Shown piece by piece: positions 2,188 through 40,478 of a stretch of DNA of 54,705 bases. The notes under the pieces are model-generated. The model had not been told where the DNA came from. It made no database searches and saw only the letters and a list, made by a program, of their open reading frames with translations. The DNA comes from Actinomycetota bacterium. GTDB taxonomy: Bacteria > Actinomycetota > Actinomycetes > S36-B12. Location: NCBI GenBank assembly GCA_009699315.1, contig WLOK01000002.1, forward strand, positions 1-54,705. The letters run 5' to 3'. The translations under genes and the position numbers were made by a program. The stretch's first letter is position 1; each line of letters starts with the position of its first letter.

Positions 2188-2582
2188 GGCGGCGGACGAG
2201 TCACCCTGTAAGCCGGATTCTGTCCCCGAAGGGGGCGATCATCCATCTGGGATCACCGTTGCCGGTGACCTCATGCGGTCTACCCGCGGATGCCTGATTG
2301 CTCAGGATGAGCGGGCCGCTCATCATCCGCGCAGCTGCACGCAGCCTTTTGACCTTGCTCCGGGTGGGGTTTGCCTAGCCACACCGATCACTCGGCATGC
2401 TGGTGGTCTCTTACACCGCCGTTTCACCCTTACCGACTCCGGAGAGCCGGCGGTCTGTTTTCTGTGGCACTTTCCCGTGGGTTGCCCCAGGTGGCCGTTA
2501 GCCACCACCTTGCCCTGTGGAGTCCGGACTTTCCTCGACAGATTTTACCTGCCGCGACCGCCCGAGCGACTCGTCCGCCGCC
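2188..2582 (-). ncRNA. rnpB: RNase P RNA (bacterial type A)
   Basis: The minus strand carries the conserved GAAAGTCCGGACTCCACAGGGCAAGGTGG and ACAGAATCCGGCTTACAGGG elements. P1 pairing joins GGCGGACGAGTC at the 5' end with GACTCGTCCGCC at the 3' end. Ends are approximate. Confidence 0.9.
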
Positions 2583-6128: not shown

Positions 6129-6205
6129 GGGCCTGTAGCTCAGTTGGTTAGAGCGCTTCCCTTACAAGGAAGATGCCGGGGGTTCGAGTCCCTCCAGGCC
6201 CACCA
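6129..6205 (+). tRNA. tRNA-Val (anticodon TAC), CCA encoded
   Basis: Acceptor stem gggcctg/caggccc. Anticodon stem cttcc/ggaag with loop CTTACAA. T-loop GGTTCGAGTCC. Confidence 0.9.
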
Positions 6206-6641: not shown

Positions 6642-6826
6642 GATTCTCCTTCGGTCGGGCACCACTGAACGATGCGTGGGGTTAGTCCACCGGAATGGGG
6701 CCCCAAGCGCAAGCCCCATGAGAAAAATTCGTCAGAGAAATTCCGGATTCACACTCACATAGGCCAAGATGGACCCAGTCCGCAGGATCGGCGATCCCGA
6801 GCCTGCCCACGATGGAGGGTCCCACC

Positions 6827-9571
6827 ATGACCGCACGTCAAGATGCATTTCGTGAATACGAGCCACTGATCCCGGCCGGGCTACCCAGCCAGTATGTCGA
6901 CGTTGATCCAGACGAGACACAGGAGTGGACGAGGGCCCTCGATCAGGTTGTCGACTCCGCAGGTGCCCAGCGCGCCCGATATCTCATGCTCTCGCTTCTC
7001 CGACGTGCGGATGAGCGCAATGTCGGTGTGCCCAGTCTGCGCAGCACCGACTACATCAACACGATCCCGCCCGAGCACGAGCCGTGGTTCCCGGGTGATG
7101 AAGACATCGAACGAAAAATTCGTTCCTACATTCGCTGGAATGCCGCGATCATGGTTCATCGCGCGCAACGGCCCGGTGTCGGAGTGGGTGGACACATCTC
7201 CACCTACGCCTCAGCATCCACGTTGTACGAAGTCGGTTTCAACCACTTCTTCCGCGGTCCCGATCACGTCGGTGGCGGAGATCAAGTGTTCTTCCAGGGC
7301 CACGCCTCCCCCGGCATCTACGCGCGCGCCTTCCTCGAGGGACGTCTGAGCGAGGGACAACTAGACGGGTTCAGGCAGGAGCTCACTCAGCCTCAATCCC
7401 TTCCCTCGTATCCGCATCCGCGTCTCATGCCGTGGTTCTGGCAGTTCCCCACGGTCTCCATGGGGCTAGGACCTCTCCATGCGATTTACCAGGCCCGCTT
7501 CAATCGCTATCTCCACGACCGAGGCATTAAAGACACGAGCCAGCAGCGGGTGTGGGCATTTCTAGGCGACGGCGAGATGGACGAGGTCGAGAGCATCGGC
7601 GCCATCGGCCTCGCGGCACGAGAGCGTCTCGACAATCTGACCTTCGTGGTCAACTGCAACCTGCAACGACTCGATGGACCGGTCCGCGGCAACGGAAAGA
7701 TCATTCAAGAACTTGAGTCGGTTTTCCGCGGTGCCGGATGGAATGTTCTCAAGGTGGTGTGGGGCCGCAATTGGGATCCCCTACTCGCGCAAGATCGCGA
7801 GGGTGCGCTCGTCAACATCATGAACTCCACACCCGACGGTGACTTCCAAACGTACAAAGCCGAAGACGGTGCATTTGTCCGCGAGAACTTCTTTGGTCGC
7901 GACCCTCGCACCGCAGCACTCGTGTCGAGTTACTCAGACGAGCAGATCTGGGCGCTTCAGCGAGGCGGTCATGACTATCGCAAGCTCTACGCGGCCTATC
8001 GCGCAGCGACGGAGACGCAAGGCCAACCAACCGTCATCCTCGCTAAGACCATCAAGGGCTGGACCTTGGGATCTCACTTCGAGGGACGCAACGCCACTCA
8101 TCAGATGAAGAAACTCAGCCTCGAAGATTTGAAGGAGTTTCGCGATCGCCTGCGCGTACCGATTGCTGATGACGCCATTGATGCAAAACTTCCGCCCTAT
8201 TTCCACCCGGGTGTTGACAGCGAGGAATACCGGTATTTGCTCGACCGCCGACGCAAGCTCGGTGGAGGCGTACCGGAGCGGAGGGTTCGCAGCAAGCCGC
8301 TACCCATGCCTGAGGATTCGGCATTCGACACGATCCGACACGGCTCCGGCAAACAACAGGTCGCCACAACAATGGCTTTTGTCCGACTTTTGAAAGACCT
8401 TATGAAGGATCCACAGATCGGCGAGCGCTTTGTACCGATCATCCCCGATGAGGCGCGCACATTCGGAATGGATTCCCTCTTCCCCACGGCACAGATCTAC
8501 TCACCTTTCGGACAGCGCTACACCTCGGTAGACCGCGAACACATCCTCAGCTACAAGGAATCGACAACCGGTCAGATCCTGCACGAAGGCATCAACGAGG
8601 CGGGTTCCGTCGCTTCATTCATTGCCGCGGGTTCTGCCTACTCCACTCACGGTGAGCCCATGATTCCGATCTACATCTTCTACTCGATGTTCGGTTTTCA
8701 GCGCACAGGCGATGCGTTTTGGGCCGCGATGGACCAGATGTGCCGGGGCTTCGTACTCGGGGCTACCGCAGGCCGCACCACACTCAACGGTGAAGGCCTG
8801 CAACATCAAGACGGTCATTCAATGTTGCTTGCCTCCACGAACCCCGCAGTCGTCGCCTACGACCCGGCGTTCTCCTACGAAATCGCACACATCGTTAAAG
8901 ACGGTCTGCGACGTATGTACGGCGAGAACTCCGAAAACATCTACTACTACCTCACTGTGTACAACGAGCCCTATGTGCAACCCGTTGAACCGGCAGACGT
9001 GGACGTCGAAGGAATCATCCGCGGCATGCATCTCATCTCACCGGCGAAAGAGAACTCCACTCCTCGGGCACAACTACTGGCGTCAGGCGTGGGAGTCAAT
9101 TGGGCATTGAAGGCCCAGCAGTTGCTCCATGAAGATTGGGGCATCAACACCGACCTGTGGTCGGTGACTTCTTGGAACGAGTTGCGCAGAGACGGTCTCG
9201 AGGTCGACCGATATAACCTCCTCAACCCCATGTCCGAACGTCGCACGGCGTACGTCACCCAGCGGCTCGCCCATGCGCCCGGACCCGTAATCGCCGTCTC
9301 AGACTGGATGAGGTCCGTGCAAGATCAGATCCGCGAGTGGGTGCCACAGCCGTTTGTTTCTTTAGGCACAGACGGTGCCGGCATGTCCGACACTCGCGGG
9401 GCTTTGCGCCGCCACTTCCTCGTGGATGCCGAGTCGATCGTGACGCAGACATTGTCGATTCTGGCTCAGACTGGTGAGGTCGGAGTCGAACGAGTAGCCC
9501 AAGCAATCGATCGGTATCGTCTTAATGATCCATCGGCGGCGGATGCAGGCAACACGGAAGGAGCTAGTTGA
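6827..9571 (+). CDS. aceE: Pyruvate dehydrogenase E1 component (homodimeric type)
   Basis: About 914 aa. [14 protein letters not shown] and GDGEMDE (ThDP motif) are typical of AceE. ATG 6827 follows GGAGGG; ATG 6812 is an alternative start. Confidence 0.92.
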
Positions 9572-10722
9572 TGTCCAGTAAACGGGACCCCCAGCGCTAC
9601 CTGAAGTACCTCGCGGCCGAACGCAATGCGATCCTGCTCTATGGCGCCCTTGCCGCTCAGGCAACGGGCGATCGGCGAGAAGCGCTTTTGGAGTTAGTGG
9701 AGATCGAGGCGCAGCATGCTCAGCACTGGATCGACATGCTCAAAGCCAATGGTGTCGAAGTCCCCCCCGCGCCCGAGCGTCTAGATCCCGACGATGCGGC
9801 CCTCGTGGCCCGCGCCCGCGCTGCCGGCCTTGACTCAGTTTTAGCCACCCTGGAAGAGACCGAGGGTGTCAACGCCGATATTTATGATGATGAACCTGAT
9901 GCCCCTGCCGTCATGAGCAGCGAAGAACGCATCCACATGCGCGTCTTCCAGCAGATGCAAGACGGCTCCCCGCTCACGGCACTCAGCGAGGCACCTCGCT
10001 CTGTGGACTTCGGTGAGACATGGCATCGGGGTGATCGCACGGGATCTGTGCGCGCTGCCATCTTCGGCGTGAGTGACGGCCTTGTGTCCAACACCGCACT
10101 GGTCATGGGATTCGCCGGGGCAGTGAGCGATCCGAAGGTGGTCCTATTCGCCGGCATCGCCGGACTCCTGGCCGGCGCTTTTTCCATGGCAGCGGGTGAA
10201 TACATCAGCGTGGCGAGCCAGCGAGATCTCTTCCGTCGCGAGATCGAGACCGAAGCTGCCGAACTCCGCGACAAGCCCGAAGAAGAGCGTCGTGAAATCG
10301 AGCTCATTTACCGCGCCAAGGGCATGGACAAGGAGACCGCCCGACGGGCCTCCGAACACATCATGGCGGACCCCGCCAAGGCCCTCGACACTCTTGCGCG
10401 CGAGGAACTCGGACTCGATCCATCAGCCCTCGGATCGCCTATCCGGGTGGCCTTCTCAAGTTTCATCGCTTTCGCCCTCGGGGCCGTTGTAGTCGTGATT
10501 CCCTACCTCTTCGCCAGCGGAGGGCTCGCCCTCGGGCTCGCGATCGCGATGTCCCTTACCTCCATGCTGGTCGTCGGTGGTCTCGTGGGCAAATTCTCCG
10601 GGAGGAACATGGGAGTCGCCGCCCTGCGGCAACTTGGAGTCGGGGCCGGTGCCGCGACCGTCACCTTCCTCATCGGACTCGCCGTTAGCCACTTCACGGG
10701 CCTTTCGGCTACCGGCGGGTAG
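9571..10722 (+). CDS. Ferritin-like (erythrin) domain fused to a VIT1/CCC1 iron transporter domain (MbfA-like)
   Basis: N-terminal four-helix EIEAQHAQHW segment. C-terminal RAAIFGVSDGLVSNTALVMG plus TM helices. The ATG shares one base with the aceE TGA. Confidence 0.7.
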   Translation: MSSKRDPQRYLKYLAAERNAILLYGALAAQATGDRREALLELVEIEAQHAQHWIDMLKANGVEVPPAPERLDPDDAALVARARAAGLDSVLATLEETEGVNADIYDDEPDAPAVMSSEERIHMRVFQQMQDGSPLTALSEAPRSVDFGETWHRGDRTGSVRAAIFGVSDGLVSNTALVMGFAGAVSDPKVVLFAGIAGLLAGAFSMAAGEYISVASQRDLFRREIETEAAELRDKPEEERREIELIYRAKGMDKETARRASEHIMADPAKALDTLAREELGLDPSALGSPIRVAFSSFIAFALGAVVVVIPYLFASGGLALGLAIAMSLTSMLVVGGLVGKFSGRNMGVAALRQLGVGAGAATVTFLIGLAVSHFTGLSATGG

Positions 10723-10792: not shown

Positions 10793-11986
10793 GTGCTCGT
10801 CGTGGTTTGCCCCGGTCAAGGTTCACAGACTCCAGGTTTCCTCCGCCCATGGCTGGAGATGCCCGAGGTCTCTGCACGCCTGAAGTGGCTGTCTACGGTC
10901 GCCGAGATCGACCTCATTGAGCATGGCACCAATTCCGATGCCGACACGATCCGCGATACGGCCATTGCGCAGCCCCTGCTGGTCGGCGCTGGCCTGGTGA
11001 CACTCCTCGAGCTCTTCCCTCATCCCGCCGACGCATTTCGACGCATTGGTGCAGGCGCGGGCCATTCCGTCGGTGAAATCACCGCGGCTGCAGCTGGCGG
11101 AGTTCTCACGGCCGAGCAGGCCATGGTGTTCGTGCGTGAACGTGGCCGAGCAATGGCGGCCGCATCCGCCCGGACCCCAACCGGCATGAGCGCTGTGCTG
11201 GGTGGCGACCCCGATGAGGTCGTCGCAAAAGCCGAGTCGCATGGGCTTACTGCCGCTAATCGCAATGGTGCTGGTCAGATCGTGGTTGCGGGCACCCTCG
11301 AGCAACTCGCAGCATTTGCTGCCGATCCGCCAGAAAAGGCGCGCGTACGCGAGTTGCAGGTCGCCGGCGCTTTCCATACCCATCACATGGAGTCCGCCGT
11401 CTCCGTTTTGGGTGGATACGCACGAGCAATTTCCGTGCACGATCCCCGATCACGCCTCATCTCCAATACCGACGGCACTGTCGTACACGATGGACGCAAT
11501 GTCCTTCGCCGGCTCGTCACACAGGTGGCAAACCCCGTGCGCTGGGACTTGTGCATGGCGACCATGGAAGATCTTGGCGTCACAGCAGTGATCGAGATCC
11601 CGCCAGCTGGCGTTCTGACCGGGCTCATCAAGCGGGCTTTGCCGGGGGTGGAGACCCTCGCTGTCAACACCCCGGACGATCTTCAGGCAGCGTGGGACAT
11701 CATTGCCCGCCACGGCCGAGCCAACCAAATGGAAAGTACTCCGACCTGGCGCATGCTCGTCTCCCCCAGCAAGGGTGCTTTCACTCCCGAACCTCACGTC
11801 GTCGCCGGCGCCGAACTCGCTCCCGGTTCTGTGGCGGGCACCGTCACGAGTCGCCGCGAAACCACCAAAATTCTCGCTCCACACGGTGGCGTTGTCGTCG
11901 AAGTGCTCGCGCAAGCCGGCGATCCGGTCGCACCCGGGCAACCGCTGGTGCGCTTGCACCCGGTCCCGGGCTCAGAGGACATGTAG
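10793..11986 (+). CDS. fabD: Malonyl-CoA:ACP transacylase with a C-terminal biotinyl/lipoyl-like domain
   Basis: GTG 10793 gives VLVVVCPGQGSQ. GHSVGE active site and QVAGAFHT are present. The ORF continues about 85 aa past the usual FabD end into a barrel-sandwich-like segment. Confidence 0.85.
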   Translation: MLVVVCPGQGSQTPGFLRPWLEMPEVSARLKWLSTVAEIDLIEHGTNSDADTIRDTAIAQPLLVGAGLVTLLELFPHPADAFRRIGAGAGHSVGEITAAAAGGVLTAEQAMVFVRERGRAMAAASARTPTGMSAVLGGDPDEVVAKAESHGLTAANRNGAGQIVVAGTLEQLAAFAADPPEKARVRELQVAGAFHTHHMESAVSVLGGYARAISVHDPRSRLISNTDGTVVHDGRNVLRRLVTQVANPVRWDLCMATMEDLGVTAVIEIPPAGVLTGLIKRALPGVETLAVNTPDDLQAAWDIIARHGRANQMESTPTWRMLVSPSKGAFTPEPHVVAGAELAPGSVAGTVTSRRETTKILAPHGGVVVEVLAQAGDPVAPGQPLVRLHPVPGSEDM

Positions 11987-13002
11987 TGGCCAAGTTCCGT
12001 GCTTCGACCGGTGCTGCGTTCTCTCGAATCATGTCCGTAGGCGCCTACCGACCTGACCGAGTGGTCACGAACGCAGAAATTTGCGAATTGATCGACTCCT
12101 CCGATGAGTGGATTCGCGAACGTTCGGGCATCAGAGAACGCAGATGGGCGGCTCCTAATCAAAGTGTCGTCGACCTCGCGTGCGAAGCAGGGCGTATCGC
12201 GATTGAGCGTTCCGGCGTTGCGCCAGAGGACATTGGTTTGGTACTCGTCGCCTCGGTGACGCACCCCTATGTCACGCCCTCCGCATCTGCCGAAGTGTCG
12301 TGCCGTCTTGGAGCACTAAACGCCGCTGCTACAGACATCAGTTCAGCGTGCGCAGGCTTTTGCTACGGAATCGCCCTAGGCGATGGAGCCATTCGCTCCG
12401 GCGCTGCCAAATACGTGCTCCTCATTGGTGTCGAGAAACTCTCGGATTGGACCAGTAAGACCGACCGTGGCACCGCCTTTATTTTCGCCGATGGTGCTGG
12501 TGCAGTGATTCTTGGACCATCCGACGAACCTGCAATCGGTCCGGTGGTGTGGGGCGCGTTGGGTGAACAGCGCGAGGCGATCAGCATGACTCAGTCGTTT
12601 CTAGAGTACCGGGATCGCGGTGGTGACTTCCCCACCCTCACCATGCAGGGACAAGCTGTATTTCGCTGGGCGATCGGCGACATGAGCAAAGTCGCTGAAG
12701 AAGCACTTCGGGCCGCAGGCATCACTGCCGAGGACCTCGACGCTTTCCTGCCACATCAGGCCAACATGCGCATCACCGACGCCCTCGTAAAGGCGATCAA
12801 GCTCCCGGCCCATGTGCCCGTCGCCCGCGATATCGAATTCACCGGAAACACCTCAGCTGCCTCAATCCCGCTTGCGATGGATCGGATGCTGTCTGATGGT
12901 CACATCCCCTACGGTGGTACCGCTTTGATGATCGGATTTGGGGCTGGGCTCGTCTATGCATCTCAAGTCGTAACACTTCCACCCGCACCACAGCACCACT
13001 AG
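11986..13002 (+). CDS. fabH: Beta-ketoacyl-ACP synthase III
   Basis: GTG 11986 overlaps the fabD TAG by 1 nt. SDEWIRERSGI, SACAGF, HQAN and GNTSAAS motifs are present. Confidence 0.9.
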   Translation: MAKFRASTGAAFSRIMSVGAYRPDRVVTNAEICELIDSSDEWIRERSGIRERRWAAPNQSVVDLACEAGRIAIERSGVAPEDIGLVLVASVTHPYVTPSASAEVSCRLGALNAAATDISSACAGFCYGIALGDGAIRSGAAKYVLLIGVEKLSDWTSKTDRGTAFIFADGAGAVILGPSDEPAIGPVVWGALGEQREAISMTQSFLEYRDRGGDFPTLTMQGQAVFRWAIGDMSKVAEEALRAAGITAEDLDAFLPHQANMRITDALVKAIKLPAHVPVARDIEFTGNTSAASIPLAMDRMLSDGHIPYGGTALMIGFGAGLVYASQVVTLPPAPQHH

Positions 13003-13044: not shown

Positions 13045-13287
13045 ATGGCAAACGCAGAGATCCTCGCTGGCCTCGCCGAGATCGTCAACGACGTCGCAGG
13101 CGTCCCGGTCTCCGACATCAGCGCCGAAAAGTCCTTCACTGATGATCTGGATATCGATTCGCTTTCAATGGTCGAGGTCGTCATGGCAGCTGAAGACAAG
13201 TGGGGCGTCAAGATTCCCGACGATGCAGTCAAGAACCTCAAGACTGTCGGCGATGCCGTCAACTTCATCGAGAGCGCCCAGGGCTGA
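13045..13287 (+). CDS. acpP: Acyl carrier protein
   Basis: 80 aa with the DDLDIDSLSMVE phosphopantetheine-attachment motif. Confidence 0.95.
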   Translation: MANAEILAGLAEIVNDVAGVPVSDISAEKSFTDDLDIDSLSMVEVVMAAEDKWGVKIPDDAVKNLKTVGDAVNFIESAQG

Positions 13288-13314: not shown

Positions 13315-14544
13315 GTGAGTCGCAATGTTGTCGTCACCGGCCTGGGGGCCACCACGCCCCTAGGCGGTGACGTCCCGTCCACCTGGGCACGTCTACTTCG
13401 TGCCGAGCCTGCCTTTGGCCCAACTCCAGCGGACTGGCATCAGGATTTGCCATGCAAGATCGCTGCATTCATGGCCGTTGATCCAGACACCGTGCTCGAT
13501 CGGGTCGAAGCTCGCAAGATGGACCGCTGTGAGCAGGCTGCTGTAGTGGCATCCCGCGAAGCATGGGCAGATGCGGGCAGCCCAGAAGTTGATCCACTAC
13601 GACTTGGCGCAGTCATGGCAACGGGCATCGGCGGCATTCTCTCGATGCTCGGCGCCTACGACCTCCTGTTGGAGCGCGGCCCGTCGCGCATTTCCCCGCA
13701 TACCGTGCCCATGCTGATGCCCAATGGACCCGCAGCGTTCGTGGGCCTTGATCTTGGCGCTCTAGCTGGCGTGCACAGCCCCGTGAGCGCATGTGCTTCT
13801 GGCGCGGAAGCCATTGCGTATGGCGCAGAGATGATCCGCAATGGCCGCGCAGATATCGTCGTCGCTGGCGGCACTGAAGCAGCCATTCATCCGCTGACAA
13901 TGTCCGGGTTCTCTGCCATGCGGGCACTCTCTACGCGCAACGACGACCCCAACGCTGCATCGCGTCCGTACGACACTGAGCGTGATGGATTTGTCATGGG
14001 TGAAGGTGCTGGCGCGCTCGTGCTCGAGGCTGAAGAATTCGCACGGGCGCGTGGTGCTCGCATTTACGCCTACGTCGCGGGTGCAGGCCTCACCGCTGAC
14101 GGTCACCACATAGCTCAACCAGACCCCGAAGGACTCGGCGCAGCTCGAGCGATGCGCTACGCGCTCACAGAAGCCGATCTCAGCCCACTCGACATCGTGC
14201 ACGTCAACGCGCACGCGACCTCGACCCCGCAGGGCGACGTCGCCGAGGCCATGGCCATTCGTTCGGCGTTAGGCCCCAACTCGCAGGCCATCATTAGCGC
14301 GACAAAATCGATGACCGGCCACATGTTGGGTGGCGCCGGATCAGTGGAGTCTGTCTTCACGATCCTTGCGCTCTACAACCGCTTGGCTCCCCCAACTGCC
14401 AATTTGCACAACCTTGACCCGCAGGTCGATCTTGACGTGACGCGATCGCAACCGCGAGCGCTTCCATCCGGCGACATCGCCGCTCTAAAGAACTCATTTG
14501 GGTTCGGCGGGCACGACGTAGCCGTTGCGTTCAGGAGTGCCTAG
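13315..14544 (+). CDS. fabF: Beta-ketoacyl-ACP synthase II (KasA/FabF type)
   Basis: 409 aa. SACASG active-site Cys, NAHATSTP and FGFGGH motifs. GTG follows GGAGAA. Confidence 0.92.
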   Translation: MSRNVVVTGLGATTPLGGDVPSTWARLLRAEPAFGPTPADWHQDLPCKIAAFMAVDPDTVLDRVEARKMDRCEQAAVVASREAWADAGSPEVDPLRLGAVMATGIGGILSMLGAYDLLLERGPSRISPHTVPMLMPNGPAAFVGLDLGALAGVHSPVSACASGAEAIAYGAEMIRNGRADIVVAGGTEAAIHPLTMSGFSAMRALSTRNDDPNAASRPYDTERDGFVMGEGAGALVLEAEEFARARGARIYAYVAGAGLTADGHHIAQPDPEGLGAARAMRYALTEADLSPLDIVHVNAHATSTPQGDVAEAMAIRSALGPNSQAIISATKSMTGHMLGGAGSVESVFTILALYNRLAPPTANLHNLDPQVDLDVTRSQPRALPSGDIAALKNSFGFGGHDVAVAFRSA

Positions 14545-15935
14545 TGAGTGACGACCTCGACGTACGTTCACCCTTAGTGCGACTCGGTGCATTCTTCGAC
14601 AACGGCGAATTCACCCTCGTCACACCCGCGGATGATCGAGGTGCAGTCAGCGCCGTGGGTTACATCAGTGGCGCCAATGTCGTCGCATTCGCCACCGATC
14701 CCACGGTCCAAGGTGGGGCGATGGGCACAGATGGCTGCCGCGCAATCGTGGCCGCCTACGACCGTGCCGTTGCAGACAATGCCCCCATCGTCGGGCTTTG
14801 GCATTCCGGTGGCGCGCGTCTGCGTGAAGGAGTGGCGAGTCTCGACGGAGTGGGTCGTGTTTTCGCGGCCATGACGCGCGCTTCAGGTCGAGTCCCCCAG
14901 ATTTCAGTCGTCTTGGGACCAGCAGCTGGCGGTGCTGCATACGGCCCAGCACTCACCGACATCGTGATCCTTGCCCCCGAGGGCCGAATTTTCGTCACCG
15001 GTCCTGAGGTAGTTCGCTCCGTCACTGGCGAAGACGTCGACATGCTCCGTCTAGGTGGCCCAGAACCACATGGTCGTCGAAGCGGCGTCGTCCACATCGT
15101 TGCTGAGTCTGAAGAAGATGCACTCGAGCAGGCCCGCAAATTGTGCCTACTTCTTGGTCGGCAAGGCTCACTCGACCTTGACGCAGTTGAAGACACCGAT
15201 CTTGGCGCATTTCTCCCTGACTCAGCGCGGCGCGCGTACGACGTACACCCGCTCGTCTTCGGATTCTGCGATCCGGGCTCCGTCGTCGAACTTCATGAGC
15301 GCTGGTCTCCCAATATTGTCACTGCTCTGGGACGCCTCAGTGGCCGCACCATTGGAGTGGTGGCCAATAATCCCCTGCGACTTGGCGGCTGCTTGGACTC
15401 CTCAAGTGCCGAAAAGGCCTCGCGCTTCGTGCGCATGTGTGACGCGTTCGCTGTGCCACTCGTCGTGTTAGTTGACGTACCGGGCTATCTCCCAGGAGTC
15501 GGGCAAGAGTGGGAAGGCGTGGTCCGACGCGGCGCCAAATTGCTGCACGCTTTCGCCGAGTGTGTTGTGCCGCGCGTAACAGTCGTGACACGCAAGGCAT
15601 ACGGCGGCGCATACGTCGCTATGAACTCTGCTTCGCTTGGTGCAACTCGTGTATTTGCCTGGCCAAATGCCGAGGTGGCAGTCATGGGTTCGGTCGCTGC
15701 TGTGCGCATTTTGCATCGACGCCGGCTCGCCGAACTGAGCGACGAGCAACAGCGAGCCGAGATGGAACTCGAACTCGCGGCCGAGCACGAAGTGATCTCC
15801 GGTGGAGTAACCCGAGCAGTCGAGTTGGGATTTGTTGACGAAATCGTTGCTCCTTCTGAGACGCGTCGAAGAGTCGCAAAGGTCATCCTCGACACACCCG
15901 GTGTCCGCGGCCTGCACGGCAACATCCCGCTGTAG
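14544..15935 (+). CDS. accD6: Acyl-CoA carboxylase carboxyltransferase beta subunit (AccD6-like)
   Basis: 463 aa carboxyl-transferase fold (GGAMG, GGARLREG, GPAAGGAAY, KAYGGAY). Same position as Rv2247 after the kas genes. Confidence 0.85.
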   Translation: MSDDLDVRSPLVRLGAFFDNGEFTLVTPADDRGAVSAVGYISGANVVAFATDPTVQGGAMGTDGCRAIVAAYDRAVADNAPIVGLWHSGGARLREGVASLDGVGRVFAAMTRASGRVPQISVVLGPAAGGAAYGPALTDIVILAPEGRIFVTGPEVVRSVTGEDVDMLRLGGPEPHGRRSGVVHIVAESEEDALEQARKLCLLLGRQGSLDLDAVEDTDLGAFLPDSARRAYDVHPLVFGFCDPGSVVELHERWSPNIVTALGRLSGRTIGVVANNPLRLGGCLDSSSAEKASRFVRMCDAFAVPLVVLVDVPGYLPGVGQEWEGVVRRGAKLLHAFAECVVPRVTVVTRKAYGGAYVAMNSASLGATRVFAWPNAEVAVMGSVAAVRILHRRRLAELSDEQQRAEMELELAAEHEVISGGVTRAVELGFVDEIVAPSETRRRVAKVILDTPGVRGLHGNIPL

Positions 15936-15937
15936 CG

Positions 15938-16426
15938 CTAAATGGCGTTGTGCAGTCTCGCGTGTGAGGCGTGCCCACCAGCCATGCGATAGGGCTCTAG
16001 AGCCCGGTCCCACTCCGCACCGAGAAGCTTCTCCAGCTCTGCCCGCAAATCTCCATCGCTCGCCAGCGCCGCGCGGATCCGGTCCTCGTGGATCATGACG
16101 TCGCCGTACGGACCGGTCGCTGCGCGATAAATACCCAGCTCAGGAGTCGAGGAGAAACGTTCAGCCTCGTGGCCCTCTGACGCCTCTTCAGTCACTTCGA
16201 ACCTCAGGTCCGGAAACGCCCGCAAGGCGCTGGCCAGACGGGCTGCGGTGCCTGCTGGGCCAGACCATGAGTGCTCGGCGCGCACGGTGCCCGGATGAAC
16301 GGGTTGGGGCGCCCAATCTAGGCGAACGTCCCGCCCTAATTCAGCAGAAAACGCCCACTCCACATGGGGGCATACCGCTCGAACACATGCGTGTACATAG
16401 ACCACGCCACGGGTACGCGACATCAC
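15938..16426 (-). CDS. DUF3145 domain protein
   Basis: 162 aa. GVVYVHACVRAVCPHVEWA...DWAPQP is the remembered DUF3145 signature. Confidence 0.75.
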   Translation of the reverse strand: MMSRTRGVVYVHACVRAVCPHVEWAFSAELGRDVRLDWAPQPVHPGTVRAEHSWSGPAGTAARLASALRAFPDLRFEVTEEASEGHEAERFSSTPELGIYRAATGPYGDVMIHEDRIRAALASDGDLRAELEKLLGAEWDRALEPYRMAGGHASHARLHNAI

Positions 16427-16516: not shown

Positions 16517-17638
16517 CTAGTCCAGCGCGAGCACCCGGGCAACTAGCCGGGCGGCCTGCCCGCCCTCTTCTAGGGCGATCCCGAGGGCTCTGGGCACGTC
16601 TAGATCGTCCAAGAGCGCTGCAGAGATGGCCGCCACTGCGGTCTCGGAGCCTCCTCGACGGCCAGCAGCTGCATGGAGGGAATCGAGTTGTCCCTCAGCG
16701 ATGTCCAGACCGGCCATGGTGAACTCCCAAGGCGCTGCCCAGGGGCGATCTGTGAGGAGCAGTCGGAGCGCAGCCGCCCGATGTCCTTCGAGGAGGTCTG
16801 AGACGAGCACCAAATTGCCGGTGGACTTCGCCATCTTCTCGCCGTCGACCATGACGGTGCCGACATGCATCCAGGCCCGCGCGAAGGGGGCCACACCAGT
16901 GGCCGCCTCGGCTTGGGCTGCTTCATAGGCATGGTGCGGGAACGCGAGATCGGCCCCGCCCGCGTGAATGTCCAAGGATGAACCGAAGGTGCGCAAGACC
17001 ATCGCGGTGCACTCTGCATGCCAGCCGGGTCGACCAGGCCCCCACGGACTTGGCCAGGACGGGTCGTCCGCTGCACTCGCGCGCCACACCGGCACGTCAA
17101 GGGCGTCTTCCTTTTGTGGGTCGTCAGGATTTTCACCGAAACGAGCACACGCCGCAAGGGCCACCTCACGCGATAGTGCATTGCGCGCAGGCACTTCGCC
17201 TCCGCGGAAATACACCGTGCCATTGCGCTCATAGGCAGCGCCGACGCTAAGTAAGACTTCGGCAAGTCGAATAACTGCGTCAATGTTTTGGTGCGCACGC
17301 GGTTCAAAGTCTGGGCGCCGCACATGCAGATCAGACATGTCGCGGTCGAATCGGTACTGCTGCATCGCGGCAAACTCGTCGTAGGGCGCTCCCGCACGCA
17401 ACGCTGCCGCTGTGAGCACATCATCCACATCGGTGATGTTGCGCGTGAGCAGAACCTCCAACCCTGAATGCCGTAGCGCTCGGGTCAGGGTGTCGACCCA
17501 CACGAAGGTCGCTGCGTGGCCGAGGTGCGTCACGTCATAGGGCGTGATTCCGCAGGAGTAGATGCGAACCGGACCGACCAGTGGAACCTCGCGGCCTCCT
17601 AGGCGCAGCGGGCCTGCGGCAATCGAATCGTGCGTCAT
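16517..17638 (-). CDS. mshC: L-cysteine:1D-myo-inositol 2-amino-2-deoxy-alpha-D-glucopyranoside ligase (mycothiol ligase)
   Basis: [32 protein letters not shown] and [13 protein letters not shown] match remembered MshC better than CysS. ATG 17638 avoids overlap with ung. Confidence 0.85.
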
Positions 17639-17671
17639 AGGGATGAGGTTACTCGCGCTAGCCTCGCTCGT

Positions 17672-18355
17672 ATGGGTAGCCAGCCACTCCACGAACTAGT
17701 CCATCCTTCGTGGCTGCCGATTCTCCTGCCCCATGAGGCAGCCTTGGAACGTATCGGCGAGCGATTGTGCGCAGAGACCACTGCCGGCCGGGCTTGGCTT
17801 CCGGAGAGCAATCTCGTCCTTCGAGCCTTTCGAATGCCCCTTCCAGAAGTCCGGGTACTCATCGTGGGCCAAGATCCCTACCCAACGCCTGGCCATCCGG
17901 TCGGTCTCTCCTTTTCTGTCGCGCCGGACGTGCGACCACTCCCACGAAGTCTGCGCAACATCTTCCAGGAACTTCACTCCGATCTGGGGCTGGTCGCACC
18001 CCCACATGGCGATCTGACGGCATGGAGCGATCGTGGGGTCTTGCTACTTAACCGAGTCCTGACCGTGGGCGCGGGTCAAGCCGGCAGCCACCGAGGATGG
18101 GGTTGGGAGTCCATCACTAATGCCGTAGTGCAGGGACTCGCGCAACGTGGCGGCCCCTTGGTCGCAATCCTGTGGGGCAAAGAAGCGCAGGCGGTTTCTG
18201 GTCTGCTCGGGGACGTGCCCATTATTGCCAGCGCACACCCGAGCCCGCTGAGTGCTCACCGAGGCTTTTTCGGTTCACGCCCGTTTAGTCGCGCGAACCA
18301 ACTGCTCATCGAATCAGGTGCTGAGCCGATCGATTGGTCTACAGATACCGCCTGA
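17672..18355 (+). CDS. ung: Uracil-DNA glycosylase, family 1
   Basis: [31 protein letters not shown] and HPSPLSA motifs are present. Confidence 0.9.
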
Positions 18356-38822: not shown

Positions 38823-38897
<75 letters not shown>

Positions 38898-40402: not shown

Positions 40403-40478
40403 TCCCGCATAGCTCAATTGGCAGAGCATACGACTGTTAATCGTAGGGTTCCTGGTTCGAGTCCAGGTGCGGGAGCCA
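40403..40478 (+). tRNA. tRNA-Asn (anticodon GTT), CCA encoded
   Basis: Acceptor stem tcccgca/tgcggga. Anticodon loop CTGTTAA. T-loop GGTTCGAGTCC. Confidence 0.9.

What the first reader, a model, noticed from the sequence alone, without database searches (positions are those of the whole stretch)
11729..11986. FabD fused to a biotinyl/lipoyl-like domain lacking the modifiable lysine, in an operon ending with AccD6
After a complete ~305-aa malonyl-CoA:ACP transacylase, the same ORF runs on without a stop. It continues into MESTPTWRMLVSPSKGAFTPEPHVVAGAELAPGSVAGTVTSRRETTKILAPHGGVVVEVLAQAGDPVAPGQPLVRLHP. This follows the barrel-sandwich pattern of BCCP/lipoyl domains (V.aP..G.f......G..v..G...g.v....m..i.a...G.v.ev....Gd.V..GqpL..l). 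At the position of the E-A-M-K biotinylation motif, however, it reads T-S-R-R. M. tuberculosis FabD (302 aa, as remembered) and S. coelicolor FabD (~316 aa, as remembered) lack such a tail. The operon ends with an AccD6-type carboxyltransferase, the enzyme that produces malonyl-CoA and normally docks a biotinyl domain. A lysine-less swinging-arm mimic on FabD could tether FabD to the carboxylase for substrate channelling, or could act regulatorily.
Basis: partly seen in the sequence, partly recalled or inferred. Interest (0 to 1): 0.6.

Follow-up and report, generated by a model that had tools for sequence, protein, structure and literature searches.

The report
FabD carries a lysine-less biotinyl-like domain
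The fatty-acid enzyme FabD here ends in a small domain shaped like a biotin carrier but unable to carry biotin; the fusion is real, occurs in about half of sampled Actinomycetes, and most likely clamps FabD onto the neighbouring AccD6 carboxylase that makes its substrate, malonyl-CoA.

Summary
One ORF (10793-11986, 397 aa) joins an intact FabD to a 74-residue biotinyl/lipoyl-type barrel-sandwich domain. Support: Pfam hit over cut-off, profile E=3e-11 to the transcarboxylase 1.3S biotinyl domain, and fold TM 0.82 to E. coli BCCP. An invariant Arg (R355) sits where the biotinyl-lysine should be, and no conserved Lys lies there.

It is not a sequencing error. The same in-frame fusion occurs in at least 492 species genomes and in 214 of 401 sampled Actinomycetes.

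The reverse does hold. Among class-sample genomes checked, 22 of 23 tail-bearing operons with a usable FabF hit have accD6 after fabF, against 7 of 26 tail-less ones. About five independent lineages lost both together (sign test p about 0.06).

A fold of an AccD6 dimer with the tail passed (ipSAE 0.71, best control 0.00). The confident contacts are family-invariant residues at the domain's N/C-terminal end, not the Arg hairpin, so the docking does not look like canonical BCCP docking.

Best reading (about 50%): a docking module that tethers FabD to AccD6. No paper describing it was found. I rate it a new variant of a known kind.

The parts
10793..11986 (+). Whole fabD-BSH gene, 397 aa (GTG start, TAG stop)
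   Evidence: P0003 identical, 397 aa; homologues start at the same position.
10793..11719 (+). FabD (malonyl-CoA:ACP transacylase) catalytic core, residues 1-309, with intact GHSVGE Ser92, Arg117, His195 and GQGxQ
   Evidence: Pfam Acyl_transf_1, E=2.5e-18. Catalytic residues are invariant in A1. The AF2 model superposes on S. coelicolor MCAT 1NM2 at 57% identity and rmsd 1.0 A.
11720..11740 (+). Short linker (HGRANQMEST), lower model confidence
   Evidence: pLDDT is 59 for residues 311-320. Linker length is conserved in close relatives. It is long and acidic in some distant ones (P0147/L082).
11741..11962 (+). Barrel-sandwich (biotinyl/lipoyl-type) domain, residues 317-390 (PTWR...VRLHP)
   Evidence: Invariant residues: P317, W319, P325, G328, R355, A362, G365, G366, E370, G376, D377, V379, P381-G-Q-P384, V386, R387, L388, P390.
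11855..11857 (+). Codon of invariant Arg355 at the position of the biotinyl/lipoyl lysine
   Evidence: The HMM alignment to 1DCZ places R on the K of EAMK. R is present in 101/101 distinct tails.
11984..11988 (+). TAGTG overlap of the fabD-BSH stop with the fabH GTG start (translational coupling)
11986..13002 (+). fabH (KAS III)
   Evidence: Pfam ACP_syn_III and ACP_syn_III_C.
13045..13287 (+). Acyl carrier protein
   Evidence: Pfam PP-binding.
13315..14544 (+). fabF/kasA-type ketoacyl-ACP synthase
   Evidence: Pfam ketoacyl-synt N and C domains.
14544..15935 (+). accD6-type carboxyltransferase beta subunit, proposed docking partner of the tail
   Evidence: Pfam Carboxyl_trans, E=2e-120. Orthologue of M. 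tuberculosis AccD6 4FB8, E=3e-184. Predicted complex with the tail: ipSAE 0.71 against a best control of 0.00.

Best explanation
The C-terminal 74 residues of this FabD form an apo biotinyl-carrier-like domain that can never be biotinylated. I propose it works as a protein-protein docking module.

Proposed mechanism. The domain binds the AccD6 carboxyltransferase encoded at the end of the same operon, at the interface of two AccD6 subunits beside the active-site region. It uses the family-specific invariant residues at its N/C-terminal end (PTWR strand, APHGG turn, PGQP loop, Arg387). This places FabD next to the enzyme that releases malonyl-CoA, so malonyl-CoA formation is physically coupled to malonyl-ACP formation at the entry of type II fatty-acid synthesis.

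Shown:
- the fusion and the fold;
- loss of the lysine, with an invariant Arg in its place;
- wide conservation of the fusion;
- the one-way association with operonic accD6.

Inferred: physical binding (a model prediction only) and the consequence of binding (channelling or coordination).

Unexplained: the role of the invariant hairpin Arg355. It is not among the confident predicted contacts.
For: 1. Domain identity. Pfam 24.4 bits against a 22.1 cut-off. Profile E=3.1e-11 to the 1.3S biotinyl domain with R on the biotinyl-K. Fold TM 0.82 to 1BDO.

2. Purifying selection over a very wide range. 198 clusters, at least 492 species genomes, and 214/401 genomes and 116/175 genera of the class sample. 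Twenty invariant tail positions.

3. Association with accD6.
- accD6 directly follows fabF in 20/20 tail-bearing genomes from 19 families.
- The same holds wherever the contig is long enough in the 80 named loci, except L008.
- In the class sample, 22 of the 23 tail-bearing operons with a usable FabF hit have accD6 after fabF (G220 is the exception). G297, a broken assembly that was left out of the tree, also carries both a tail and an accD6.
- Only 7/26 tail-less operons have it.

4. Independent co-loss. On a FabD-core + FabF tree, operons lacking both tail and accD6 nest inside operons having both at several well-supported places. Examples: L094/L095 with the window's clade; L134/L135 sister to L025. 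In about 5 independent contrasts both traits change together, in 0-1 they go opposite ways, and in 3-4 only one changes.

5. Predicted complex. AccD6 dimer + tail scored ipSAE 0.71 (runs 0.71/0.77/0.71), with the best of 3 controls at 0.00. That mark was reached by 58 of 80 solved complexes and 2 of 110 mismatched pairs. Partner pLDDT was at least 82, and runs agreed in at least 53% of contacts. Own alignments and a 2+1 chain set-up were used, so the calibration holds only roughly.

6. Interface content. The confident tail contacts are alignment positions 2-11, 51-52, 58, 66, 68-72 and 75. They largely coincide with the family-invariant residues P317, T318, W319, R320, P363, H364, E370, P381-P384 and R387. 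They do not include the biotin hairpin, so the pose does not look like a copy of solved BCCP-carboxyltransferase docking.

7. Autonomy of the module. Apparent stand-alone or split versions sit in the same operon position (L083, L081).

8. Precedent. An accessory protein that docks on a mycobacterial AccD subunit at a BCCP site has been solved (MSMEG_0435-0436 on AccD5; PMC13012033).
Against: - Binding is only predicted. Solved carboxylase holoenzymes contain biotinyl domains on carboxyltransferases, so part of the score may come from likeness.
- The phylogenetic association is suggestive but not significant (sign test p about 0.06). Genes in one operon are inherited together.
- Seven sampled tail-less lineages keep operonic accD6, so AccD6 does not need the tail.
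- Two tail-bearing operons (L008, G220/L140) have no accD6 within 3-5 kb.
- The most striking conserved residue, Arg355, is not explained by the predicted interface.
- AccD6 columns conserved only in tail-bearing lineages are not clearly enriched near the predicted interface: 3 of 10 columns, against 12% of positions.
- If the tail occupies the BCCP docking site it would inhibit the carboxylase rather than channel its product.
Confidence: 0.5

Rival explanations
1. BADC-like regulator. The lysine-less carrier domain competes with the genuine biotinylated BCCP of the AccA3-type alpha subunit for AccD6 or for the biotin carboxylase. It thereby throttles malonyl-CoA synthesis according to FabD abundance or occupancy, rather than channelling product.
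For: - Plant BADC proteins are BCCP homologues without the biotinyl lysine that inhibit heteromeric ACCase (PMC12706156; bioRxiv 10.1101/634550).
- The predicted site spans both AccD6 subunits next to the conserved DVPGYLPG...QEW motif, close to the active-site region.
- MSMEG_0435-0436 lowers carboxylase activity by displacing a BCCP on AccD5.
- The genome has ordinary BCCPs to compete with.
Against: - Fusing an inhibitor of malonyl-CoA synthesis to the first consumer of malonyl-CoA, at 1:1 stoichiometry, is an odd design.
- BADCs are free-standing and act on the BC/BCCP subcomplex.
- The confident contacts avoid the hairpin that would enter the biotin site.
- No test was done of whether the predicted site overlaps the BCCP site.
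Confidence: 0.17
2. The domain docks FabD to another fatty-acid-synthesis partner (ACP, FabH or another FabD molecule), or packs in cis on the FabD core to shape the ACP-binding surface. On this reading the accD6 association reflects shared inheritance of an operon type.
For: - The linker is short and conserved in most lineages, and both domains are modelled with high confidence.
- The tail's stop codon overlaps the fabH start, both here and in L083.
- Conserved basic residues (R320, R355, R387, H364, H389) would suit an acidic partner such as ACP (the inference is mine).
- The association test is not significant.
Against: - Tail-less FabDs work with the same FabH/ACP/FabF set in many sampled Actinomycetes.
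- The tail was lost repeatedly together with accD6, while FabH, ACP and FabF stayed.
- Long-linker and apparently split forms argue against an obligatory cis packing.
- The AccD6 prediction passed with zero-score controls. No equivalent prediction with ACP or FabH could be run, because only one job was allowed.
Confidence: 0.18
3. A conserved but partner-less stabilising or solubility appendage, or a relic of an ancient BCCP fusion.
For: - No experiment exists.
- The function of Arg355 is unexplained.
- Several lineages lost the tail without obvious consequence.
Against: - Twenty invariant surface-type positions (PTWR, PGQP, R355, R387) persist across at least 116 genera. That is far more constraint than fold maintenance needs.
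- Ordinary biotinyl domains do not conserve these residues (alignments).
Confidence: 0.1
4. Assembly or sequencing artefact that fuses fabD to a separate small gene.
For: The window comes from a 191-contig draft genome. Some apparent split forms exist elsewhere.
Against: - The same in-frame fusion of the same length (391-407 aa) is found in hundreds of independent isolates and MAGs, including complete chromosomes.
- The one clearly split long-contig case (L129) is a 1-nt homopolymer deletion in a 4.4x assembly.
Confidence: 0.01

Closest known systems
Biotinyl domains of biotin carboxyl carrier proteins (E. coli BCCP 1BDO; P. shermanii transcarboxylase 1.3S 1DCZ; AccA3-type alpha subunits)
   Same: - Same barrel-sandwich hybrid fold (TM 0.82).
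- Same sequence family (profile E=3e-11; Pfam PF00364 over cut-off).
- Same metabolic neighbourhood, acyl-CoA carboxylation.
   Different: - The biotinyl Lys is replaced by an invariant Arg, so the domain cannot carry biotin or CO2.
- It is fused to FabD through a short linker, not to a BC domain through a long flexible one.
- It has its own invariant motifs (PTWR, APHGG, VEWxVxDGDxVxPGQPxVRLHP).
- The predicted contact with the carboxyltransferase uses the end opposite the hairpin.
Plant BADC proteins (biotin attachment domain-containing, lysine-less BCCP homologues that inhibit plastid ACCase)
   Same: A BCCP-like domain that has lost the biotinyl lysine and acts, or is proposed to act, by binding acetyl-CoA carboxylase components in fatty-acid synthesis.
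   Different: - BADCs are free-standing plant proteins that join the BC/BCCP subcomplex.
- This domain is bacterial, fused to FabD, and co-varies with the carboxyltransferase subunit.
- No homology closer than the shared superfamily was shown here.
Canonical FabD / MCAT (S. coelicolor 1NM2, M. tuberculosis 2QC3, E. coli 1MLA)
   Same: The core is 57% identical to 1NM2 with rmsd 1.0 A, and all catalytic residues are present.
   Different: Those enzymes end at about residue 302-316. This one has 88 more residues forming an extra domain.
[quoted passage not shown]
   Same: An accessory protein that docks on an actinobacterial AccD carboxyltransferase at or near a BCCP site and modulates the carboxylase.
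   Different: The fold is unrelated, it is a stand-alone complex, it sequesters biotin, and it has been shown experimentally.

Membership tests
Biotin_lipoyl superfamily (Pfam PF00364, barrel-sandwich hybrid / single hybrid motif) | Significant match to the family model | tested here: met
   24.4 bits against a 22.1 cut-off for the tail alone, and 21.4 bits within the whole protein. Family profile against PDB biotinyl domains: E=3.1e-11.
Biotin_lipoyl superfamily (Pfam PF00364, barrel-sandwich hybrid / single hybrid motif) | Flattened eight-strand beta-barrel fold of biotinyl/lipoyl domains | tested here: met
   The AF2 tail model has pLDDT 93.1 and is all-beta. Foldseek gives TM 0.82 and rmsd 1.9 A to 1BDO, and the top hits are nearly all biotinyl domains.
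Functional biotin (or lipoyl) carrier domain | Modifiable Lys at the tip of the beta-hairpin (E-A-M-K-M / D-K-A) | tested here: not met
   Arg355 aligns to the Lys. R is present in 101/101 distinct tails, and no Lys column lies within the hairpin.
Functional biotin (or lipoyl) carrier domain | Actual biotinylation or lipoylation | not testable with these tools
   Needs a streptavidin blot or mass spectrometry. It is expected to be negative because the acceptor Lys is absent.
BADC-like non-catalytic BCCP mimics | BCCP-type domain lacking the biotinyl Lys | tested here: met
BADC-like non-catalytic BCCP mimics | Binds ACCase subunits and inhibits carboxylase activity | not testable with these tools
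   Only a predicted complex with AccD6 exists. The effect on activity is unknown.
FabD / malonyl-CoA:ACP transacylase | Acyltransferase fold with GHSxG Ser, Arg117, His and the GQGxQ oxyanion region | tested here: met
   Pfam Acyl_transf_1. S92, R117, H195, Q9 and Q12 are invariant. 57% identity and rmsd 1.0 A to 1NM2. NCBIfam TIGR00128 gives 158 bits, below its 260.9 equivalog cut-off.
AccD6-type carboxyltransferase | Orthology to M. tuberculosis AccD6 and position at the end of the FAS-II operon | tested here: met
   4FB8 at E=3.2e-184 over residues 3-463, against E=1e-116 for PccB. The gene follows fabF with a 1-nt overlap.

The most novel reading that the evidence does not exclude
About half of Actinomycetes build a physical bridge between acetyl-CoA carboxylase and type II fatty-acid synthase. 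A degenerate, Arg-tipped biotinyl domain on FabD docks by a non-canonical face (its N/C-terminal end) onto the AccD6 dimer. The freed hairpin Arg serves a second role, for example probing the biotin site of the carboxyltransferase or biotin carboxylase. The module would then both channel malonyl-CoA and tune carboxylase activity.
Probability: 0.3. Interest if true: 0.75.

Novelty: new variant of a known kind. Interest (0 to 1): 0.6.

Why it matters
Bacterial type II fatty-acid synthesis is usually described as a set of free, diffusing enzymes, and how malonyl-CoA is handed from the carboxylase to FabD is not settled. A conserved docking domain on FabD that recognises AccD6 would be direct genomic evidence for a carboxylase-FabD assembly in a very large bacterial group, including Nocardioides, Kribbella, Nanopelagicales and many other families.

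It would also be a bacterial counterpart of the plant BADC idea, in which a biotin-carrier fold is re-used as a pure binding module.

It gives a simple handle, the tail and its invariant PTWR/PGQP/Arg residues, for testing channelling. It could also be used to engineer malonyl-CoA flux in actinomycete producers.

Finally, it explains why NCBI's curated FabD model falls short of its cut-off on this protein, and why NCBI labels the homologues it names in the search results only 'acyltransferase domain-containing protein'.

Tried and rejected
1. Hidden stop or frameshift between FabD and the tail: rejected by conservation of the in-frame fusion.

2. A conserved Lys at the modification site: rejected. 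K359 (TTKIL) is not conserved. K327 is conserved but lies in the first strand-turn and aligns to A/G of real carriers.

3. 'An operon ending in accD6 is peculiar to the fusion': rejected, because 7 tail-less operons also end in accD6.

4. Split genes as proof of an autonomous domain: only partly usable.
- L129 is a 1-nt homopolymer deletion in a low-coverage long-read contig, and L131 is riddled with frameshifts.
- P0147/L082 is a fused form cut by a contig end.
- L081 (ATGA overlap, different linker) and L083 (tail gene directly after a PucR-type regulator and before fabH) remain candidates. Both are short metagenomic contigs.

5. Search for AccD6 positions conserved only in tail-bearing lineages near the predicted interface: 3 of 10 such columns (R158, S159, V165) fall within ±3 residues of contact positions, which make up 12% of the protein. 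With only 7 tail-less sequences this is too weak to count.

6. Phylogenetic sign test of tail against accD6: the direction is consistent but p is about 0.06-0.125.

7. Literature: six full-text searches found no description of a FabD-biotinyl-domain fusion (BADC search).

8. This scan's earlier notes held nothing for the sequence.

9. NCBIfam has no model for the fusion or the tail.

10. The relative placement of tail and FabD core in the full-length AF2 model could not be read, because coordinates and PAE are not returned.
Full report
**What is in the window**

The + strand carries the following genes:
- aceE (6812-9571)
- a VIT1-family gene (9568-10722)
- a 397-aa gene from GTG 10793 to TAG 11986
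- fabH (11986-13002; its GTG overlaps the preceding TAG by one base)
- an ACP gene (13045-13287)
- a fabF/kasA-type synthase (13315-14544)
- a carboxyltransferase (14544-15935)

The carboxyltransferase is the orthologue of M. tuberculosis AccD6. It matches 4FB8 at E=3e-184 over its whole length, against E=1e-116 for PccB.

Residues 1-~309 of the 397-aa protein are a complete FabD.

**The tail**

Residues 317-390 (window 11741-11962) are a biotinyl/lipoyl-type barrel-sandwich domain.
- Alone, the tail scores 24.4 bits on Pfam Biotin_lipoyl (cut-off 22.1).
- A profile of 28 tails finds the biotinyl domain of the P. shermanii transcarboxylase 1.3S subunit at E=3.1e-11, followed by lipoyl and other biotinyl domains.
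- The AF2 model of the tail (pLDDT 93) has E. coli BCCP 1BDO as its best PDB fold match (TM 0.82), followed by the BCCP domains of mycobacterial MCC, human PCC and archaeal BCCP.

In the HMM alignment the biotinyl Lys of E-A-M-K falls on Arg355 (T-S-R-R here; usually N-L-R-G or T-L-R-D). That Arg is present in all 101 distinct tails examined.

In more distant FabD tails found in the 1.8-billion-protein library, an Arg sits at this position or one residue earlier.

No Lys is conserved in the hairpin. The K of TTKIL is P/A/E/D elsewhere. The nearly invariant K327 lies in the first strand-turn and aligns with A/G of true carriers.

So the domain cannot accept biotin or lipoate. All three fail.

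**It is a conserved architecture, not an accident**

- Searching FabD-length proteins with the tail gave 198 clusters, nearly all 391-407 aa. JGI labels them '[acyl-carrier-protein] S-malonyltransferase' and NCBI 'acyltransferase domain-containing protein'.
They include Nocardioides, Kribbella, Actinopolymorpha, Phytoactinopolyspora, Propionicimonas, Marmoricola, Nanopelagicales and Jiangellaceae.
- In an even sample of 401 genomes of the window's class, 214 (116 of 175 genera) have the tail at E<=1e-8. A few of the weakest matches may be ordinary carriers. 372 of the 401 have FabD.
- These tallies include eight genomes flagged as unpublished: G006, G023, G031, G035, G042, G262, G303 and G372. 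One row of the synteny table (G042/L113, family f48) rests on one of them.
- The tail has twenty invariant positions: P317, W319, P325, G328, R355, A362, G365, G366, E370, G376, D377, V379, P381-G-Q-P384, V386, R387, L388, P390. Ordinary biotinyl domains do not share most of them.
- NCBIfam has no model for the fusion.
- Six full-text literature searches found no description of it.

**Does accD6 matter?**

It is not. Tail-less fab operons from a Mycobacterium-like genome (fabD-acp-kasA-kasB-accD6) and six other lineages also end in accD6.

The converse is striking, however.

| Operon type | accD6 directly after fabF |
|---|---|
| Tail-bearing, 20 genomes from 19 families | 20 of 20 |
| Tail-bearing, 80 named loci, wherever the contig is long enough | all but L008 |
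| Tail-bearing, class sample, usable FabF hit | 22 of 23 (exception G220) |
| Tail-less, all examined | 7 of 26 |

In the 80 named loci, L029 and L057 have frameshifted accD6 matches. G297, a broken assembly left out of the tree, also carries both a tail and an accD6.

Operon genes travel together, so I built a tree from FabD core plus FabF (66 operons, tail columns excluded) and counted independent contrasts.
- Operons lacking both features nest inside clades having both at several well-supported nodes. Examples are the window's own family (L094/L095, next to L023, L039 and the window) and a Nocardioides-like genus (L134/L135, sister to L025).
- Of 8-10 independent pairs that differ in one trait, about 5 differ in the other in the same direction, 0-1 in the opposite direction, and 3-4 not at all.
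- The sign test gives p of about 0.06-0.125, so the result is suggestive but not significant.

The pattern reads as follows. AccD6 can do without the tail, but the tail is almost never kept once accD6 leaves the operon.

**Predicted complex**

One job was allowed. I folded two copies of AccD6 (residues 3-462, 26-row alignment) with the tail (80 residues, 28-row alignment).
- The verdict was that the model supports binding. ipSAE was 0.71 (runs 0.71, 0.77, 0.71) and the best of three controls was 0.00.
- This mark was reached by 58 of 80 solved complexes and 2 of 110 mismatched pairs.
- Partner pLDDT was at least 82, and the runs agreed in at least 53% of contacts.
- The calibration holds only roughly, because my own alignments and a three-chain set-up were used.

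Biotinyl domains bound to carboxyltransferases exist in solved holoenzymes, so a pass could partly reflect likeness. What argues against a mere copy is the interface.
- The confident tail contacts are alignment positions 2-11, 51-52, 58, 66, 68-72 and 75. These are the PTWRxLV strand, the P-H of APHGG, E370, the PGQP loop and R387.
- They are the family-specific invariant residues at the N/C-terminal end of the domain. The hairpin is not among them.
- On AccD6 the contacts span both subunits: 156-163 of one, and 229, 279-283, 313-324 (the DVPGYLPG..QEW motif) and 385 of the other. All are nearly invariant in 85 tail-associated AccD6 sequences.

An attempt to show that positions conserved only in tail-associated AccD6 cluster at this surface was inconclusive.

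**Other context**

- The genome has ordinary carriers the tail could coexist or compete with. These are an AccA3-type BC-BCCP (contig C9), an AccC/AccB-like pair (C155), a 72-aa biotinyl protein (C12), another 166-aa frame with a biotinyl domain (C61), and an E2 with two lipoyl domains (C24). Two further carboxyltransferases lie on C71 and C86.
- Linker length varies. It is about 8-10 conserved residues here and in close relatives, but about 30 acidic residues in P0147/L082.
- Two short metagenomic contigs suggest free-standing versions in the same operon slot. L081 has FabD with its own stop, an ATGA overlap, a 126-aa tail gene and then fabH. L083 has a PucR-type regulator, a 122-aa tail gene and then fabH.
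- Other apparent splits are assembly errors or contig-end truncations.

**Interpretation**

The best-supported mechanism is that the domain is a binding module derived from a biotin carrier that tethers FabD to AccD6. Malonyl-CoA made by the carboxyltransferase would then be used at once for malonyl-ACP (confidence about 0.5). The fusion of a product-consuming enzyme to a domain whose family natively recognises the producing enzyme fits this directly.

A regulatory, BADC-like reading shares the binding step and differs only in its consequence (0.17). It cannot be separated from channelling without knowing whether the predicted site overlaps the BCCP site. A recent structure shows that mycobacterial AccD5 is regulated by an accessory complex at a BCCP site (PMC13012033), so such control exists in this phylum.

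Docking to ACP, FabH or FabD itself (0.18) and a partner-less appendage (0.1) remain possible.

The invariant Arg at the former biotinylation site is not explained by any of the evidence and is the main open point.

**Verdict**

The feature is a widespread but, as far as I could find, undescribed variant of two well-known parts. It is testable with simple biochemistry.

Noticed in passing
window 15938-16426 (-): A DUF3145 gene (162 aa, E=1e-60) lies convergently right after accD6. The same family follows the carboxyltransferase in an unrelated locus (L131), so it may be a conserved neighbour of actinobacterial fab operons.
   Followed up: partly
window 9568-10722 (+): A VIT1-family protein (iron/manganese transporter type) has a ~160-residue N-terminal extension. 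Its start overlaps the aceE stop. The aceE-VIT1-fabD order recurs in many related loci (e.g. L003, L005, L018), whereas others have a ~1.2-2 kb gap before fabD instead. L131 has a GGDEF_2/HTH_30 (PucR-type) gene upstream of its fab genes, and L083 has a PucR-type C-terminus.
   Followed up: partly
window 16517-17692 (-): A 391-aa class-I Cys-tRNA-synthetase-like protein. Its size suggests a possible MshC (mycothiol ligase), but that assignment rests on my own knowledge. It is followed by a UDG-superfamily gene at 17630-18355 (+).
   Followed up: no
window 2193-2573 (-); 6129-6202 (+); 38823-38897 (-); 40403-40475 (+): RNase P RNA class A (300 bits) and three tRNA genes.
   Followed up: no
own genome: contigs C9, C155, C61, C12, C86, C71: This 2.1-Mb draft genome encodes both an AccA3-type fused BC-BCCP and an E. 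coli-type separate AccC + ~166-aa BCCP pair. It also has a 72-aa stand-alone biotinyl protein and three carboxyltransferases.
   Followed up: partly
L083:584-952 and L081:966-1346: Apparent free-standing versions of the FabD tail with 37-40-residue low-complexity N-termini. In L083 the tail gene sits directly after a PucR-type regulator and before fabH, with no fabD between them. Both are short metagenomic contigs, so they remain unverified.
   Followed up: partly
L032 and L033 (Kribbella jiaozuonensis, two scaffolds): The whole fabD-tail/fabH/acp/fabF/accD6 block appears twice with identical layout and identities. This is either a duplicated operon or an assembly duplication.
   Followed up: no
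L140 (G220, family f60) and L008 (Phytoactinopolyspora halophila): These are the only tail-bearing operons seen without accD6 within 3-5 kb of fabF. The G220 tail is also the most divergent (42% identity). Whether accD6 lies elsewhere in these genomes was not checked.
   Followed up: no
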